From positions 361 to 64,360 of IMG/VR virus record IMGVR_UViG_3300001598_000005: DNA of 64,000 bases; one strand, written 5' to 3'. The stretch comes from a virus. Of the stretch, positions 41,958-45,592 are shown piece after piece (the stretch's first letter is position 1; each line of letters starts with the position of its first letter). The position numbers and the translations under genes are program-made. The notes under the pieces are model-generated. The model searched no databases. It was not told the origin of the DNA and saw only the letters and a list, made by a program, of their open reading frames with translations.

Positions 41958-42303
41958 AGTGCGTACCAGGTTTGTATGTTGCGTTGATTGACGGAGGTGC
42001 ATACTTGAGCGTGCAGTTGTCTATCATTCTCTTTAGCACCGATGCAGGCTCCTCGTGTGTACCGTTGAGCTCAAGGTCCCAATTGACAAGGAATGCAATG
42101 AACAGTGCCTTTGCAAGCAGCTCACTCGACTTCTCTTGTATCGTCTTCAGTGCTGTCATGTTCTTGCATCGAGAGGCTGCATATGCATTGGCTGCCCTGT
42201 CGAGCTGATCGGTAAGGTATGGCAGTCCTTTGGTTGCATCGCATATGCGGTGGCCAAATTCCTTCTCCATGCTTTTGATAAGGTTGTTTGTTACTTCATC
42301 CAT
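41944..42303 (-). CDS. Hypothetical protein
   Basis: ATG 42303 overlapping the end of the initiator gene. Confidence 0.55.
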   Translation of the reverse strand: MDEVTNNLIKSMEKEFGHRICDATKGLPYLTDQLDRAANAYAASRCKNMTALKTIQEKSSELLAKALFIAFLVNWDLELNGTHEEPASVLKRMIDNCTLKYAPPSINATYKPGTHYEGD

Positions 42304-43036
42304 TTTGTTTGTTCTTTTTTGATTGTGACATAATGTAATCTGCAATACTACCTGTTATGCCATTTTCCCTGCGGAACTGGTCTGCCGACACACATTTAAC
42401 TTGTTCTGGTGCTTGTTTCTTCTCGCTGAGGCGGTACTTCTGCTTCCTTTCCTGCTTTGGTGCAGGATTGGTCCTGCGTTCTGCCCATTTTGAGCATTTG
42501 TAGTGCCAGTCGGATATCGGCTCACCGTTGATCTTCCAACCTATTTCGGCATAGTAGTTCCAGAACTCGGCTGCGTTGATTATCAGGTTTAGCTTCTTCT
42601 GCTTCAGATACTCTTCGACGTCACTCAGCGTTGGTGGGAATTTCCTCGCCTGCTCGGGTGTTGTCTCTGCTATCAACCGGTATTCTCTCAGTGTTATCTG
42701 CGTTCCATCTGGTATCAATGTAAGATACCTTCGCTGTATGCTTGCCGACGTAAGTACATACGGTTTACCTTCGATGGGGTAGAACAGGCCTATCTTTCGG
42801 CAGGATGCTATCACCTCGTGGACAAACGATGTCTTGCATCTGACAAGTATGGCTATGTCAATAATCTGCTCGTTGTTGAGCTCTATATAATACCCTGACA
42901 CTGATGCGTAGATCCGCGAAAGCAATATGATATAAACAGACAAACTAAGACCACCTTGCTGTGCTATCAGTGATCGTATTCGCTCATCTTCGAAGAAATC
43001 TACGTCGAGTGCGAAATAATCAAGTCTGCTGTCCAT
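42296..43036 (-). CDS. Replication initiator (DUF4373-like N-terminus)
   Basis: LDYFALDVDFFEDERIR, LTSASIQRRY; FPPTLSDV..FWNYY..GW. Confidence 0.75.
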   Translation of the reverse strand: MDSRLDYFALDVDFFEDERIRSLIAQQGGLSLSVYIILLSRIYASVSGYYIELNNEQIIDIAILVRCKTSFVHEVIASCRKIGLFYPIEGKPYVLTSASIQRRYLTLIPDGTQITLREYRLIAETTPEQARKFPPTLSDVEEYLKQKKLNLIINAAEFWNYYAEIGWKINGEPISDWHYKCSKWAERRTNPAPKQERKQKYRLSEKKQAPEQVKCVSADQFRRENGITGSIADYIMSQSKKNKQNG

Positions 43037-43042
43037 GTCCGA

Positions 43043-43330
43043 CTATGTTCTGAGGTAGTCCTGTACGTCGTTCGACAGTGCCAACAGGTCGCGCGAGTTG
43101 TAGAATACGCATCCACCGCTTCGTATCGGTGTAATAAGGTCGAGCTCTACCCATCGCATGACTCTCTTCCTTCCGAATTCCTGATATGCCTTACGCTGGT
43201 TGATCTGTATTGGCAACCGGTTGAGCTTGTCCTGGGCCAAGGCTATTGCAGTCCCCATCATTCTGATGTATCTCTCGAGGGGTATGCGAGTGTTTTCGCC
43301 AAGAGTTACTGTTTCTTGCATTTGTGCCAT
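43043..43330 (-). CDS. Excisionase-like winged-HTH protein
   Basis: INQRKAYQEFGRKRVMRWV..LITP. Confidence 0.55.
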   Translation of the reverse strand: MAQMQETVTLGENTRIPLERYIRMMGTAIALAQDKLNRLPIQINQRKAYQEFGRKRVMRWVELDLITPIRSGGCVFYNSRDLLALSNDVQDYLRT

Positions 43331-43379
43331 ATTTGTAGGTTTTAGTGATCGTAACATCATTATCCTCAATGCCTGTCGG

Positions 43380-43453
43380 TGAACTGAGCAGGGCTCGAAC
43401 CTGCGACCTAAAGTTTAGGAAACTTTTGCTCTGTCCAACTGAGCTATCAGTTC
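43380..43453 (-). tRNA. tRNA-Arg(CCT)
   Basis: Cloverleaf: acceptor GAACTGA/TCAGTTC, D stem GCTC/GAGC, AAAGT-TTCCTAA-ACTTT, GCAGG-TTCGAGC-CCTGC; CCA not encoded. Confidence 0.93.
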
Positions 43454-43516
43454 ATTAGCCGCACCATGTATCACTACATAATACGGCATTGAAAATCAAA
43501 ATCTGGCTATCTCATC

Positions 43517-43630
43517 GGGATGATGGCCGGACTCGAACCGGCAATGACCGAACCAACGATATCTACTCATGAATTAACTGTATTAAAAATTTCGTTGTCA
43601 GCATAGCTTCACCATTTGCATACATCATCC
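43517..43630 (-). ncRNA. tRNA-like RNA A with long hairpin replacing the anticodon arm
   Basis: Acceptor GGATGATG/CATCATCC, D-like TATGCAAATGGTGAAGCTA, T arm GCCGG-TTCGAGT-CCGGC. Confidence 0.75.
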
Positions 43631-43644
43631 TTTTCACACTCTGA

Positions 43645-43765
43645 AAGATGCAGTCGGATTCGAACCGACGTGACTGAACCAGCTTGTATTTTTGTCATTA
43701 GATCTTGCCATATTACAGAAAAATACATAGCTGTCAGCGTAGCTTCGCCACTTGCATATGCATCG
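43645..43765 (-). ncRNA. tRNA-like RNA B, paralogue of A
   Basis: Acceptor GATGCA/TGCATC, TATGCAAGTGGCGAAGCTA, inner stem TGTATTTTT/AAAAATACA, T arm GTCGG-TTCGAAT-CCGAC. Confidence 0.75.
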
Positions 43766-43981
43766 ATCTTCGTGCTAATTCTTTTCTTTGACATCATGCA
43801 ATTAACAATCCGGTAGCATCAGCCTTTGGGCCAACACCTTAGCCGGTAAGCCTCCCACGCTTTTCTGGAACCTCACACCTGCATGCAATTTCCTTTCGGA
43901 GAGTCACAGTACCGGTAGCGGATGTGGTCGATGATTATCAAAAAGATGACATTGAGATTTTATGATGTCAAAGATCGTTGT

Positions 43982-44087
43982 TGGCGGCAAGCAACGGAGT
44001 CGAACCGTTATTTCTGTGCTACAATGAAAATACCCCTTATTCAACCAAAAGATGCAGCAGCGTTCTACCTTATTGAACTACCTTGCC
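43982..44087 (-). ncRNA. tRNA-like RNA C with enlarged anticodon loop and encoded CCA
   Basis: GGCAAG/CTTGCC acceptor + GCCA, D stem GTTC/GAAC, TGCTGCA/TGTAGCA stem with 29-nt loop, AACGG-TTCGACT-CCGTT. Confidence 0.75.
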
Positions 44088-44095
44088 ATGTAGTA

Positions 44096-44446
44096 TTATT
44101 TTTGTGCTTGCCTGTCGATTTGCAGATTATAATGCAAGAATTCTGAGTTGAAGTTTTGTATTACCGTATTTCCAGACTTTGTTGCTGTGTTGAGATATTC
44201 CTGTATCAATTCTTCGCTTCTGACGGTTTTTATCTCGCAGTCCGCTATGTATACGTACTCTCGTATCCTGATCACGTATATCACGTTTGGCGAGTATATA
44301 AACGATGCATAAATAGCCCCTGAACTTGTGACTCTCGATGCTATACCTCGGTGCCTGAGCCATTCCTGCACCTGGTAGTCGTTGAAGCCGTCGTACAGGA
44401 TGTATCTCGTATCGATGTCAGCATTTGTAATAAGCTTGTTTGCCAT
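44096..44446 (-). CDS. Hypothetical protein
   Basis: 116 aa ORF. Confidence 0.55.
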   Translation of the reverse strand: MANKLITNADIDTRYILYDGFNDYQVQEWLRHRGIASRVTSSGAIYASFIYSPNVIYVIRIREYVYIADCEIKTVRSEELIQEYLNTATKSGNTVIQNFNSEFLHYNLQIDRQAQK

Positions 44447-44753
44447 ATTTGTTGAGTAAGAAATTGTAGATTGACCGCTTCTCTATTACGGACAGATTCT
44501 GGTATGGTATGATCTTGTGCTTCGACGCTGTAAACGAATCAATGCCGAAAAGATTAAACTTGAATTTATATCCGAATGGTTTCGGAAACACATTGAAGCT
44601 TACAAGATTCCACATTCCCATCCCGTAGTTGATCATTATCGAGTTAACTGGAAATGTAATTATTTTGGCATCTTTTGGCAGCTCACCTACGAAAGTGAGG
44701 AGATCTTCGATATCGGTGAGTGTTGGGATCCTGTGTGGCGTTGGAGCATCCAT
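44418..44753 (-). CDS. Hypothetical protein
   Basis: 111 aa ORF. Confidence 0.55.
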   Translation of the reverse strand: MDAPTPHRIPTLTDIEDLLTFVGELPKDAKIITFPVNSIMINYGMGMWNLVSFNVFPKPFGYKFKFNLFGIDSFTASKHKIIPYQNLSVIEKRSIYNFLLNKYGKQAYYKC

Positions 44754-44757
44754 TGTA

Positions 44758-44919
44758 TTAGTTGTTGTAAATCTTTGATATTCGGTACATGTTATAGCCT
44801 ATGTATCCCCATGCGAATAGAATAAACTCTATGCTGTGACACATGATACACAATAAGGCAAAAGCAGCAATAGACTTAAGCAGCAGGCATATAGCCTTGG
44901 TGTTTTTGATTTTTTTCAT
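44758..44919 (-). CDS. 53-aa membrane protein, first gene of the early operon
   Basis: Manual translation MKKIKNTKAICLLLKSIAAFALLCIM... Confidence 0.5.
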   Translation of the reverse strand: MKKIKNTKAICLLLKSIAAFALLCIMCHSIEFILFAWGYIGYNMYRISKIYNN

Positions 44920-44991
44920 AAACGATTTTTCTTTTAGTGAGTCTAAAAAGCATAAATAATGTGAAATGCACGTATTTTATGCTCGTAAATA

Positions 44992-45023
44992 TTTGGAATG
45001 ATGGAGAAAATGACTTATATTTG
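44992..45023 (+). promoter_or_regulatory. Rightward (repressor) promoter
   Basis: TTTG-N20-TATATTTG. Confidence 0.7.
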
Positions 45024-45049
45024 CAGCGCATTTCACCAGATTCGCGGTG

Positions 45050-45081
45050 CAAAGATAGAGTGTTTACTACAATTTGCCAAA
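45050..45081 (-). promoter_or_regulatory. Leftward (lytic early) promoter
   Basis: Reverse complement reads TTTG-N20-TATCTTTG. Confidence 0.7.
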
Positions 45082-45118
45082 TTAATTGTGGTAAAATTGC
45101 TATCTTTGTGGTAAAATT
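45063..45118. promoter_or_regulatory. Putative repressor operators
   Basis: TTGTGGTAAAATT at 45086 and 45106, plus inverted variant TTTACTACAA at 45063. Confidence 0.55.
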
Positions 45119-45148
45119 TAACATATATATTTAACATTGTTAATTCTT

Positions 45149-45592
45149 ATGGAGAGTTCTGTAAAAAATAGACTCATGGAGTTTATCGCGTCTCAGGGAT
45201 TGAGTCAGCGAGAATTTGAACGCTCAATAAATGCTTCTAATGGTTTTGTGAAATCAATCAGAAAAGGAATTGGTGGAGCAAGAATACTAAAGATTAAAGA
45301 GCAATATCCGCACTTGAACATAGAGTGGTTGCTGCATGGAACGGGAGAGATGATTAAGCCTATTAACGCGAATGTAGCAAACATTGATACCAATAACGGA
45401 ACATTGAACCAGGGAACATCCAATGTAGGTAATCAGCAAAACGGAGAGAAAGCTCTTTACGAGAAGATCATTGAGTTACTTGAAGAGAAGATTGCAAATT
45501 TACAGAGAGAAAAGGATGAGCTATTGCGTAGGCACAACTGTCCTACAATGGAAGATCTGGAAAGAAAACTAAATGAGCTGACAAATGGTTGA
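45149..45592 (+). CDS. CI-like HTH repressor
   Basis: VKNRL..F....GLSQREFERSI..SNG.V; YPHLNIEWLLHGTGEM; C-terminal coiled coil, no S24 peptidase. Confidence 0.8.
   Translation: MESSVKNRLMEFIASQGLSQREFERSINASNGFVKSIRKGIGGARILKIKEQYPHLNIEWLLHGTGEMIKPINANVANIDTNNGTLNQGTSNVGNQQNGEKALYEKIIELLEEKIANLQREKDELLRRHNCPTMEDLERKLNELTNG

What the first reader, a model, noticed from the sequence alone, without database searches (positions are those of the whole stretch)
43517..43765. Tandem pair of tRNA-scaffold RNAs whose anticodon arm is replaced by a long variable hairpin
Seen: two adjacent minus-strand units of about 115-120 nt. Each has an acceptor stem, U8-A9, a GG-containing D-like loop and a perfect T arm (GGTTCGA.TCC), but about 60-70 nt lie where the anticodon and variable arms belong. 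They covary. Acceptor stems differ yet pair (GGATGATG/CATCATCC vs GATGCA/TGCATC), T stems show a compensatory change (GCCGG/CCGGC vs GTCGG/CCGAC), and the inner stems differ yet pair (AACGA/TCGTT vs AGCT/AGCT plus TGTATTTTT/AAAAATACA). Flanking motifs are shared (TATGCAA.TGG.GAAGCTA.GCTGACA ... TGGTTC.GTCA). The inserts are far too short for group I introns. Unit A has a G-1:C73-like 8th pair as in tRNA-His. Inference: a family of RNase P/Z-processed RNAs using a tRNA body to display a variable AU-rich loop. Possible roles are antisense guides, decoys for anticodon nucleases or other tRNA-sensing defences, or protein sponges.
Basis: partly seen in the sequence, partly recalled or inferred. Interest (0 to 1): 0.8.

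Follow-up and report, generated by a model that had tools for sequence, protein, structure and literature searches.

The report
Anticodon-less tRNA-shaped phage RNAs
Two neighbouring genes in this phage's tRNA cluster encode RNAs that keep the ends and elbow of a tRNA but carry a long bulged hairpin where the anticodon should be, so they cannot read codons. They are a new variant of the little-understood tRNA-like stable RNAs long known from phages T4 and T5.

Summary
Units A (43518-43630) and B (43646-43765), on the minus strand, each have a paired acceptor stem, U8, a D loop with A14/G18/G19/A21, and a perfect T arm. A 61- or 70-nt bulged hairpin stands in place of the anticodon and variable arms. 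ARAGORN calls neither unit. Rfam's tRNA model reaches 31.9 bits for A only, with the middle left unaligned.

A related phage (capsid protein 77% identical) has one 155-nt homologue at the same position. Across these three sequences 97.5% of 79 pair cells are paired and 13 of 27 pairs changed on both sides. The 15:48 tertiary pair also covaries.

These are selected RNA genes, not decaying tRNAs and not intron-bearing tRNAs. A and the homologue carry the histidine-type G-1:C73 end.

The design is not new in kind. T4 species 1 RNA and T5 RNA1/RNA2 are tRNA-like stable RNAs of unknown function. My own IMG/VR scan found 89 distinct leucine-tRNA-framed shells with unrelated inserts. This scan's earlier notes report the same class many times on other DNA.

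Processing, stability and function are inferred only. I could obtain no RNA data. No antisense target was found in the phage genome, and neither phage encodes a Ro60-like protein.

The parts
43518..43630 (-). Unit A, a 113-nt tRNA-shaped RNA. Acceptor 5' strand 43623-43630 pairs with 43518-43525 (8 bp, outermost pair G-1:C73). U8 A9 at 43621-43622. D region 43605-43620. 61-nt arm 43543-43603. T arm 43526-43542.
   Evidence: Sequence; pair table; RF00005 31.9 bits; R1 130.4 bits; MFE fold
43646..43765 (-). Unit B, a 120-nt tRNA-shaped RNA. Acceptor 43759-43764 pairs with 43647-43652 (6 bp; the outer C43765.U43646 is unpaired). U8 A9 at 43757-43758. D region 43741-43756. 70-nt arm 43670-43739. 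T arm 43653-43669.
   Evidence: Sequence; pair table; R1 136.2 bits; MFE fold, z -3.01
43547..43602 (-). Arm of unit A. The conserved base helix is GCUGA (43598-43602) paired with UCGGU (43547-43551), followed by a 2-nt GU bulge (43552-43553) and the helix CAACGA/UCGUUG. The distal part is AU-rich and variable.
   Evidence: MFE fold; the same base helix and GU bulge occur in B and, with changes on both sides, in the homologue (helix 3: 9 pairs, 100% paired, 4 with changes on both sides)
43378..43453 (-). Canonical tRNA-Arg(CCU), next downstream in the same cluster
   Evidence: ARAGORN; RF00005 69.4 bits
43982..44087 (-). Element C, a third tRNA-shaped RNA. It has a normal D arm and T arm, discriminator G plus an encoded CCA, and 41 nt where the 7-nt anticodon loop should be. 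Its scaffold differs from that of A and B.
   Evidence: RF00005 39.1 bits with a 41-nt unaligned insert; sequence; fold; not called by ARAGORN
43805..43852 (-). Conserved hairpin of about 48 nt in the 220-nt spacer between C and B. It probably belongs to the same non-coding transcript.
   Evidence: Alignment with the related phage; in the RNAalifold consensus, 15 of its 28 pairs lie in this hairpin and 4 of those 15 changed on both sides. Only two sequences.

Best explanation
Units A and B are genes for small non-decoding RNAs that keep the acceptor/T-arm minihelix and the D-loop/T-loop elbow of a tRNA (of histidine type in A). The anticodon and variable arms are replaced by one long helix with a conserved base and a GU bulge.

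The inferred pathway is as follows.
1. The RNAs are transcribed with element C and tRNA-Arg from the minus-strand gene block.
2. They are cut out by the host tRNA-maturation enzymes: RNase P at the 5' end, 3' trimming, and CCA addition (A and B encode no CCA).
3. Their tRNA fold makes them stable.

They cannot take part in decoding. They have no anticodon loop, and their acceptor/T stacks are 13 bp (A) and 11 bp (B) instead of 12.

Between the tandem copies the stems have drifted apart by compensatory change, while three blocks stay nearly fixed: the D loop, the T loop and the arm base. The arm base is therefore the likely functional contact. I take it to be a docking site for a protein, with the tRNA body supplying processing and stability.

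They are the same kind of thing as T4 species 1 RNA and T5 RNA1/RNA2, whose function is also unknown.

Shown: the shape, the covariation, conservation in one relative, and the location in a tRNA cluster. Inferred: transcription, processing, stability, and the binding partner.
For: - Shape and tertiary marks: U8, A14, G18 G19, A21 and the T loop UUCGA are present. The 15:48 pair is A:U in A, G:C in B and A:U in the homologue.
- Covariation: 13 of 27 pairs changed on both sides, 97.5% of 79 cells paired, 0 of 500 shuffles as high, slid controls at most 47.1% paired.
- A homologue (L024:1814-1968) lies at the same position, upstream of the tRNAs and the rep gene, in a phage with 77% capsid and 52% rep identity.
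- The D stem also covaries in the tRNA register: U.U, G:C, C:G in A and B against A:U, C:G, A:U in the homologue.
- No anticodon: ARAGORN calls none of A, B or C, and Rfam leaves the middle of A unaligned.
- Precedents checked in records: T4 rnaC and rnaD lie next to tRNA-Arg and are annotated 'small, stable RNA'; rnaC ends in a T arm. T5 RNA1 and RNA2 are annotated 'tRNA-like stable RNA with unknown functions' and fold with a closing stem of the two ends and a T arm.
- Generality of the design: of 100 distinct closed elements recovered with one tRNA-Leu D-arm word, 11 are normal tRNA-Leu, all 11 called by ARAGORN. The other 89 are shells of 81-246 nt with unrelated middles, and ARAGORN of them.
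- R1's best match outside the family in the T4 and T5 loci is the T5 tRNA-His gene (25.7 bits), with the A/B arm base aligned to its anticodon stem. This fits an origin from a tRNA-His gene.
Against: - I have no transcript, end-mapping or stability data of any kind (one search listed no run).
- There are only three family members in two phages. Pattern scans of IMG/VR, JGI metagenomes and GTDB genomes found no further member. The covariation statistics therefore rest on n = 3 and on a model-fitted alignment.
- MFE z-scores are weak for A (-1.60).
- The D stem has only 2 standard pairs in A and B. An alternative 5-bp hairpin (AUGGU-GAA-GCUAU) fits the same letters and also covaries (helix 2), so the core fold is not settled.
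- B lacks the G-1:C73 pair and has an 11-bp stack, so the two units are not equivalent.
- No partner protein was identified. No TROVE or DUF2828 gene is present in either phage (0 of 2 each).
- Conservation of the arm base between A and B could partly reflect gene conversion rather than function.
Confidence: 0.6

Rival explanations
1. Processing punctuation only. The tRNA-shaped bodies exist solely so that host RNase P and 3' tRNA-trimming enzymes cut the long phage transcript at these points. The released RNAs have no function of their own, and the middle is free to drift and grow.
For: - The cluster lies between co-oriented genes on the minus strand (ORF 44096-44446 upstream; ORF 43043-43369 and the rep gene 42296-43036 downstream).
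- Only the parts that RNase P and tRNase Z read (acceptor/T stack and elbow) are universally kept, and the distal arm is variable.
- The hypervariable middles in the leucine-framed shells fit relaxed constraint.
Against: - Four tRNA-shaped units in 0.73 kb are redundant as cutting signals. tRNA-Arg alone would do.
- The arm base (GCUGAC... / ...GGUUCRGUC with its GU bulge) is nearly identical in A and B although their acceptor stems differ at most positions. In the homologue it is kept with changes on both sides (helix 3). This argues for constraint beyond the minihelix.
Confidence: 0.2
2. Y-RNA-like partner of a Ro60/Rsr ring protein. The bulged helix at the arm base is the Ro-binding site and the tRNA body is the effector module. 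This would be a back-to-front relative of YrlA that uses the host's Rsr.
For: - YrlA RNAs mimic tRNA, occur in phages, and the M. smegmatis RNA is cut by RNase P and receives CCA (PMC4201824; passages and a section heading seen).
- The arm base is a bulged helix. The 3' strand GGUUCGG in A loosely resembles the GGUCCGA contacted by Ro60, and the homologue has CGAAAG, which is part of the GNCGAAN0-1G motif (motifs, sequences).
- The TROVE control rings in Bacteroides thetaiotaomicron, so a Bacteroidota host could supply Rsr.
- Earlier notes of this scan link histidine-type tRNA shells to phage Ro60-like genes (e1-6045137, e1-5951843).
Against: - No TROVE or DUF2828 gene in this phage or its relative (0 of 2 each).
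- RF02553 gives only 15.7 bits (gathering score 69, E 9.7), and that match straddles tRNA-Arg and unit A.
- The topology is opposite to YrlA: the ends are at the acceptor stem, not at the Ro stem.
- B has neither CGAA nor GGUYCGR intact, and the ACAGCAA 'handle' of the earlier notes is absent from A and B.
- The host is unknown. The hint of Bacteroidota rests on two weak partial rep matches.
Confidence: 0.08
3. Intron-bearing or otherwise interrupted tRNA genes. The 61- to 70-nt middle is removed to give a working tRNA, perhaps tRNA-His.
For: - The arm base aligns with the anticodon stem of the T5 tRNA-His gene.
- A and the homologue carry G-1:C73.
- The phage has no tRNA-His of its own.
Against: - No 7-nt loop with U33 and a purine at 37 can be restored from the flanks. 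The letters after the stem are CA..., and GU precedes the 3' strand.
- The inserts are far shorter than group I introns, and no intron family of Rfam matches at E up to 10.
- I saw no bulge-helix-bulge motif. The arm continues the stem directly, with one 2-nt bulge.
- Acceptor/T stacks of 13 and 11 bp do not fit the 12-bp branch that elongation factor Tu recognises (background stated in PMC5389517, passage seen).
- The arm length differs threefold among homologues: 61, 70 and about 100 nt.
Confidence: 0.04
4. Decaying pseudo-tRNAs, or a protein-coding reading of the stretch (ORF 43609-43797, 62 aa, minus strand).
For: ARAGORN rejects them. An ORF of 62 codons overlaps B and part of A. The family is very rare.
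Against: - Stems are kept through changes on both sides in 13 of 27 pairs.
- The T loops and D loops are intact, and the 15:48 tertiary pair covaries.
- The element is retained in a relative whose neighbouring rep protein is only 52% identical.
- The 62-codon ORF spans the spacer between two repeats and was not examined further. I ran no homology search on it.
Confidence: 0.05

Closest known systems
Phage T4 species 1 RNA (rnaC), with species 2 RNA (rnaD), in the T4 tRNA cluster
   Same: Two small stable RNAs lie directly beside tRNA-Arg in a phage tRNA cluster: T4 has tRNA-Arg, rnaD (119 nt), rnaC (139 nt). rnaC ends in a perfect T arm, and its two ends can pair. It has no anticodon arm. The function is still unknown ('their biological roles are unknown', PMC3014915; 'RNAs of yet unknown functions', detected by Northern blot, PMC9697503; passages seen).
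   Different: There is no sequence relation: R1 gives nothing on rnaC or rnaD. The order is reversed, since here the two RNAs precede tRNA-Arg. rnaD shows no T arm. A and B have a recognisable D loop, and A has a histidine-type end. The host phage is an unrelated 64-kb phage with a P22-like portal and an SU10-like capsid protein.
Phage T5 RNA1, RNA2 and RNA3 ('tRNA-like stable RNA with unknown functions', NC_005859)
   Same: They are annotated stable RNAs of 144, 125 and 73 nt among the T5 tRNA genes. RNA1 and RNA2 fold with a closing stem formed by the two ends, a T arm, and a large structured middle instead of an anticodon arm.
   Different: There is no homology to A or B: R1 gives only an 8.6-bit T-arm fragment in RNA2. 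T5 RNA1 carries a leucine-type D arm like the shells, not the A/B D region. The conserved GU-bulged arm base is not seen there.
Leucine-tRNA-framed phage shells with unrelated middles
   Same: A constant tRNA body carries a non-anticodon middle of variable length, inside phage tRNA arrays. There are 89 distinct shells of 81-246 nt, and ARAGORN of them. Rfam lists them as RF00005 at 35-41 bits beside normal tRNAs.
   Different: The scaffold is different (leucine-type D arm, discriminator A73), and that scaffold is near-identical across many contigs while the middles differ. In A and B the acceptor stems differ while the arm base is conserved. Of the 89 inserts, 3 contain GGUUCR and none contains the A/B arm-base arrangement.
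YrlA-type bacterial and phage Y RNAs (Rfam RF02553) with Ro60/Rsr
   Same: These are non-decoding tRNA mimics that tRNA enzymes recognise, and they are also found in phages (PMC4201824, passages).
   Different: The topology is circularly permuted relative to A and B. They are encoded next to a TROVE gene, which is absent here. The model score is far below threshold.
tmRNA tRNA-like domain
   Same: It has an acceptor stem and T arm without an anticodon, with a long helix replacing the anticodon stem.
   Different: A and B have no G3:U70. I looked for no tag reading frame or pseudoknots and did not test for them. A and B are about 115-120 nt. RF00023 matches only an 18-nt T-arm piece of B at 12.1 bits. 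Two other phage contigs do carry 113-nt mini tmRNA-like RNAs with G3:U70; these are a different scaffold.

Membership tests
Canonical decoding tRNA (Rfam RF00005) | 7-bp acceptor stem and 5-bp T stem with a T loop | tested here: inconclusive
   The T arm is perfect in both units. The acceptor has 8 bp in A (7 plus G-1:C73) and 6 bp plus a C.U mismatch in B.
Canonical decoding tRNA (Rfam RF00005) | Anticodon arm: 5-bp stem and 7-nt loop with U33 and an anticodon | tested here: not met
   61 and 70 nt of bulged helix stand in its place. ARAGORN makes no call. Rfam leaves the region unaligned.
Canonical decoding tRNA (Rfam RF00005) | Score at or above the gathering threshold (29 bits) | tested here: inconclusive
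   A reaches 31.9 bits in the 2.4-kb search but is not listed in the whole-window gathering run. B is not matched in either.
tRNA-His type acceptor end | Encoded G-1 paired with discriminator C73 | tested here: inconclusive
   Present in A and in the homologue; absent in B, which has C.U. R1 matches the T5 tRNA-His gene at 25.7 bits, but not at E up to 1 in 2 Flavobacteriales genomes. Charging by HisRS cannot be tested here.
Phage tRNA-like stable RNAs (T4 species 1; T5 RNA1/RNA2) | Encoded within the phage tRNA gene cluster, on the same strand | tested here: met
   The order on the minus strand is C, B, A, tRNA-Arg. Compare.
Phage tRNA-like stable RNAs (T4 species 1; T5 RNA1/RNA2) | tRNA-like ends (closing stem plus T arm) without an anticodon arm | tested here: met
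   for A and B; for T4 rnaC and T5 RNA1/RNA2.
Phage tRNA-like stable RNAs (T4 species 1; T5 RNA1/RNA2) | Accumulates as a discrete stable RNA in infected cells | not testable with these tools
   No sequencing run was listed.
Phage tRNA-like stable RNAs (T4 species 1; T5 RNA1/RNA2) | Sequence or model homology to the T4 or T5 RNAs | tested here: not met
   R1 on the T4 and T5 loci gives no match in rnaC, rnaD or RNA1, and an 8.6-bit fragment in RNA2. The likeness is one of design, not of descent.
YrlA / Y RNA (RF02553) | Neighbouring or co-encoded Ro60/TROVE protein | tested here: not met
   PF05731 matches 0 of 2 phage records, while the control rings in 2 of 14 genomes. PF11443 matches 0 of 2.
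YrlA / Y RNA (RF02553) | Model score, and ends placed at the Ro-binding stem | tested here: not met
   15.7 bits against a gathering score of 69, misplaced. The ends are at the acceptor stem.
tmRNA (RF00023) | G3:U70 alanine identity and a model match | tested here: not met
   Pair 3:70 is U:A in A and A:U in B. Only a 12.1-bit T-arm fragment matches.
Group I intron in a tRNA gene | Intron of about 200 nt or more with a matching Rfam intron model, leaving a restorable anticodon loop | tested here: not met
   The inserts are 61 and 70 nt. No intron family matches at E up to 10. No loop is restorable.
   None of these is among the 10 matches at E up to 10 in window 42800-45200.

The most novel reading that the evidence does not exclude
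Phage anticodon-less tRNA shells are built on exactly those tRNA identities that synthetases read without the anticodon. Seen here: the histidine type (G-1:C73) in unit A and its homologue; the leucine type (leucine D arm plus A73) in the 89 shells; the alanine type (G3:U70) in the two mini tmRNA-like RNAs. On this reading A is charged with histidine by the host HisRS and acts as a charged but non-decoding tRNA. It might serve as an amino-acid donor or sink, or as a mimic that reports a false charging state to host sensors. The conserved bulged arm would recruit the partner.
Probability: 0.1. Interest if true: 0.8.

Novelty: new variant of a known kind. Interest (0 to 1): 0.45.

Why it matters
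The role of tRNA-like stable RNAs in phage tRNA clusters has been open since they were found in T4 and T5. Two papers I consulted still call the T4 RNAs' roles unknown (PMC3014915, PMC9697503).

This locus adds a compact, well-defined variant: a histidine-type shell in which tandem copies have diverged everywhere that pairing allows. That divergence exposes a short conserved bulged helix as the candidate functional site.

Together with the many leucine-framed shells, it shows that 'tRNA body plus foreign middle' is a recurrent phage design and not an oddity of two model phages. tRNA finders and Rfam largely miss it, or label it as tRNA.

The claim is testable with simple experiments: a Northern blot, pull-down with the arm, and in-vitro histidylation.

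Tried and rejected
Searches for further members
- Two exact-motif scans of IMG/VR gave only chance hits in a coding gene or nothing.
- The same 5' motif gave 0 hits in JGI metagenome contigs and 0 in GTDB genome contigs.
- A looser 3' motif in IMG/VR gave 6 stretches. One was the known relative, two were mini tmRNA-like RNAs, one a minihelix-like element, one a normal long-arm suppressor-type tRNA, and one coding.
- Protein routes to more relatives:
  - The rep protein has 7 hits including itself, the nearest at 45-46% identity on contigs under 2 kb.
  - ORF 43043-43369 has only itself.
  - In the metagenome scan with a rep alignment, 594 stretches matched a pattern and none was a relative.
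  - GTDB genomes gave 2 weak partial matches in Flavobacteriales.
  - The capsid protein found 2 IMG/VR loci.
- megablast against the phage records found nothing, and blastn found only tRNA-Arg look-alikes.
- R1 over 151 Bacteroidota genomes gave 1 weak hit (25 bits) without a T arm, which I judge to be chance. R1 over 2 Flavobacteriales genomes gave none.
- These genome searches are weak negatives. The same tool missed the true homologue in G001, which cmsearch later found.

Expression: no run was listed for the stretch and no RNA holder was listed.

Antisense idea: nothing beyond chance in the phage genome.

Ro60 idea: no TROVE or DUF2828 gene.

MAFFT misaligned the long homologue, so I used the model-fitted alignment A7 and a hand-anchored pair table instead.

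Literature: searches found no paper describing a tRNA body with the anticodon arm replaced by a variable hairpin in phages. PMC10690425 (passages) lists tRNA-like candidates, and the word 'anticodon' occurs 0 times in its main text. Its supplementary tables, which I could not open, may hold such motifs.
Full report
WHAT IS THERE

The window is a complete 64,360-bp virus record with direct terminal repeats. It encodes a P22-like portal, an SU10-like major capsid protein, a C5 methylase and an integrase-like protein. G+C is about 40-49%.

A 0.73-kb stretch without convincing genes lies on the minus strand. It sits between ORF 44096-44446 and the pair of ORF 43043-43369 and a replication-initiator gene 42296-43036 (PHROG and Pfam PF14297). 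In order of transcription this stretch holds:
- element C (44087-43982);
- a 220-nt spacer;
- unit B (43765-43646);
- a spacer of about 15 nt;
- unit A (43630-43518);
- a 64-nt spacer;
- a canonical tRNA-Arg(CCU) (43453-43378).

ARAGORN calls only tRNA-Arg. Rfam at gathering thresholds lists tRNA-Arg and C.

THE OBSERVATION

A script that anchors on the T loop and the D-loop UGG gives the following.
- Acceptor stems: A has 8 of 8 standard pairs including G-1:C73. B has 6 pairs plus an outer C.U.
- T stems: 5 of 5 pairs in both, with one pair changed on both sides (C:G against U:A).
- Conserved positions: U8, A14, G18 G19, A21 and the T loop UUCGA are in place.
- D stem: only G:C and C:G are standard pairs, flanked by U.U and A.A.
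- The middle: 61 nt (A) and 70 nt (B) lie between position 26 and the T stem.

RNAfold folds these middles into one long arm. In A, GCUGA pairs with UCGGU. A 2-nt GU bulge follows on the 3' strand, then CAACGA pairs with UCGUUG, and the arm ends in an AU-rich tip. In B, GCUGA pairs with UCAGU, followed by the same GU bulge, then CAGCU pairs with AGCUG, then a 9-bp AU helix.

Rfam's tRNA model scores A at 31.9 bits (threshold 29) with the middle unaligned. B yields only a T-arm fragment.

IS IT MORE THAN CHANCE, AND IS IT SELECTED?

I built a covariance model (R1) from A and B with the structure above. In the window it finds only A and B.

The capsid protein led to one related IMG/VR record, G001 (58 kb, 77% identity). 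G001 has the same layout: an aberrant tRNA-like gene, a spacer, tRNA-Met and tRNA-Arg(CCU), a small ORF, and a rep gene 52% identical to ours. Reading the spacer, I found one 155-nt unit (L024:1814-1968). It has:
- an 8-bp acceptor including G-1:C73;
- the same D loop, AAUGGUGA;
- a T arm GCAGG/CCUGC;
- an arm of about 100 nt whose base again has a GU bulge.

cmsearch with R1 recovers it full length at 30.5 bits. The whole-record search tool had missed it.

On the model-fitted alignment of the three sequences:
- 97.5% of 79 cells are standard pairs;
- 13 of 27 pairs changed on both sides;
- no shuffle out of 500 reaches either value;
- sliding the partners by 1-3 columns gives 25-47% paired.

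Per helix, the pairs with changes on both sides number 6 of 8 in the acceptor, 4 of 9 in the arm base and 2 of 5 in the T stem.

Outside the model's structure, two tRNA-specific features also covary. The tertiary 15:48 pair is A:U, G:C, A:U. The D stem in tRNA register is U.U/G:C/C:G in A and B and A:U/C:G/A:U in the homologue.

The caveats are real. There are three sequences, an alignment fitted to the structure, modest folding z-scores, and an alternative 5-bp hairpin over the D region that also fits (helix 2). Even so, decay of dead tRNA genes would not keep every stem paired while changing most of its letters.

WHAT IT IS NOT

- Not a decoding tRNA. It has no anticodon loop, and the acceptor/T stacks are 13 and 11 bp.
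- Not an intron-bearing tRNA. No intron family matches. The inserts are short and differ threefold in length among homologues. No 7-nt loop can be restored from the flanks.
- Not tmRNA. There is no G3:U70, and only a 12-bit fragment matches.
- Not YrlA. The score is 15.7 bits against a threshold of 69, and the match is misplaced. The topology is opposite. Neither phage has a TROVE or DUF2828 gene.
- Not an antisense RNA against the phage's own genome. The longest complements are 11-12 nt, no better than shuffles.

HOW IT COMPARES WITH WHAT IS KNOWN

T4 carries tRNA-Arg, rnaD and rnaC in a row, annotated as small stable RNAs. rnaC ends in a T arm. Two papers still call their roles unknown (PMC3014915 and PMC9697503, passages).

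T5 carries RNA1, RNA2 and RNA3, annotated as tRNA-like stable RNAs of unknown function. RNA1 and RNA2 fold with closing stems, T arms and large middles.

None of these is homologous to A or B. The likeness is one of design and of genomic place.

R1's only good hit in the T4 and T5 loci is the T5 tRNA-His gene (25.7 bits). There the A/B arm base is aligned to the anticodon stem. Together with G-1:C73, this suggests that the A/B shell descends from a tRNA-His gene whose anticodon loop was replaced.

THE DESIGN IS GENERAL

Two contigs with distant rep relatives (L014, L017) each carry the same two tRNA shells, each with a different middle in each contig. One shell has a leucine-type D arm.

I scanned IMG/VR for that D-arm word. 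Of 125 occurrences, 113 could be closed by a T arm and a complementary 3' strand, giving 100 distinct elements.
- Eleven are ordinary tRNA-Leu of 79-85 nt, and ARAGORN calls all 11.
- The other 89 are 81-246 nt long (median 111), and 75 of them begin with one identical heptamer. They have unrelated middles. ARAGORN calls only 13 of the 89, several of these with impossible anticodons.

In the seven of these loci that I scanned, the shells sit among normal tRNA genes, and Rfam lists them as RF00005 at 35-41 bits. Their middles share no handle with A and B: 3 of 89 contain GGUUCR and 0 contain ACAGCAA.

After I had found this, the notebook of earlier findings showed that this scan had reported the same leucine-framed class, and histidine-type shells, many times on other DNA. 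Those notes gave me the T5 lead and the Ro60 idea. I checked both here: the T5 annotation holds, and the Ro60 link is not supported at this locus.

HOW IT MOST LIKELY WORKS

- Shown: the fold-defining letters, the covariation, the conservation in one relative, and the place in a tRNA cluster.
- Inferred from established knowledge of tRNA maturation: RNase P reads the acceptor/T stack and elbow, and an encoded G-1:C73 pair shifts its cut by one base. The units would therefore be excised from the cluster transcript, trimmed, given CCA, and would persist as stable RNAs.
- Inferred from the pattern of conservation: the tandem copies have diverged wherever pairing allows but keep the D loop, the T loop and the bulged arm base. 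The arm base is thus the best candidate for a specific contact, probably with a protein.

I put 0.6 on this reading, 0.2 on a pure processing-signal role, and small odds on a Y-RNA-like role with host Rsr, on splicing, and on decay.

VERDICT

This is a real and well-described feature. The functional guesses are untested, and one of them (antisense within the phage) is unsupported.

It is a new variant of an old, unexplained kind rather than something categorically new, and this scan has met the kind often. Interest is moderate.

Noticed in passing
window 43982-44087 (-); L024:1501-1580: Element C is a third tRNA-shaped RNA. It has a normal D arm, T arm and encoded CCA, but 41 nt where the anticodon loop should be. 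Its positional counterpart in the related phage has a 5-bp stem with a 13-nt loop, which ARAGORN mislabels tRNA-His.
   Followed up: partly
window 43805-43852 (-); L024 about 1725-1775: The spacer between C and B holds a conserved hairpin of about 48 nt. In the RNAalifold consensus, 4 of its 15 pairs changed on both sides between the two phages. It contains a conserved AAGGUG. No Rfam match.
   Followed up: partly
window about 43962-43972 (-); L024 about 1590-1600: An 11-nt word (UCUUUGACAUC) lies 7-9 nt after the 3' end of the first tRNA-like element and is identical in both phages. It is not a good sigma-70 promoter. It may be a processing or promoter element.
   Followed up: no
L027:2633-2744 (-); L030:3168-3279 (-): Two IMG/VR contigs carry a 113-nt RNA with tmRNA-like ends. 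RF00023 scores 31.5 bits for L027, with the whole middle deleted; L030 was scanned too but is not listed. They have a G3:U70 pair and an acceptor change on both sides between the two copies (G:C against A:U). They look like mini tRNA-like domains without a tag region.
   Followed up: partly
L034-L150 (IMG/VR), e.g. L050:3679-3815: There are 89 distinct leucine-tRNA-framed shells. 75 start with the same heptamer, their middles are unrelated, they are 81-246 nt long, and ARAGORN of them. Some middles look pseudoknotted. They sit in phage tRNA arrays, sometimes several per array.
   Followed up: partly
L014:112-225 and L017:1723-1803: The same non-leucine tRNA shell carries a 7-bp stem with a 13-nt purine-rich loop in one phage and an insert of about 63 nt in its relative.
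   Followed up: no
L075:1518-1779: A phage contig has a match to the permuted tmRNA family (RF04321, 51.1 bits, above its threshold of 47) next to tRNA genes and a leucine-framed shell.
   Followed up: no
L029 about 1990-2070: An element consists of an 8-bp acceptor-like stem, about 28 nt, and a T arm, with no D or anticodon arm. It looks like a minihelix.
   Followed up: no
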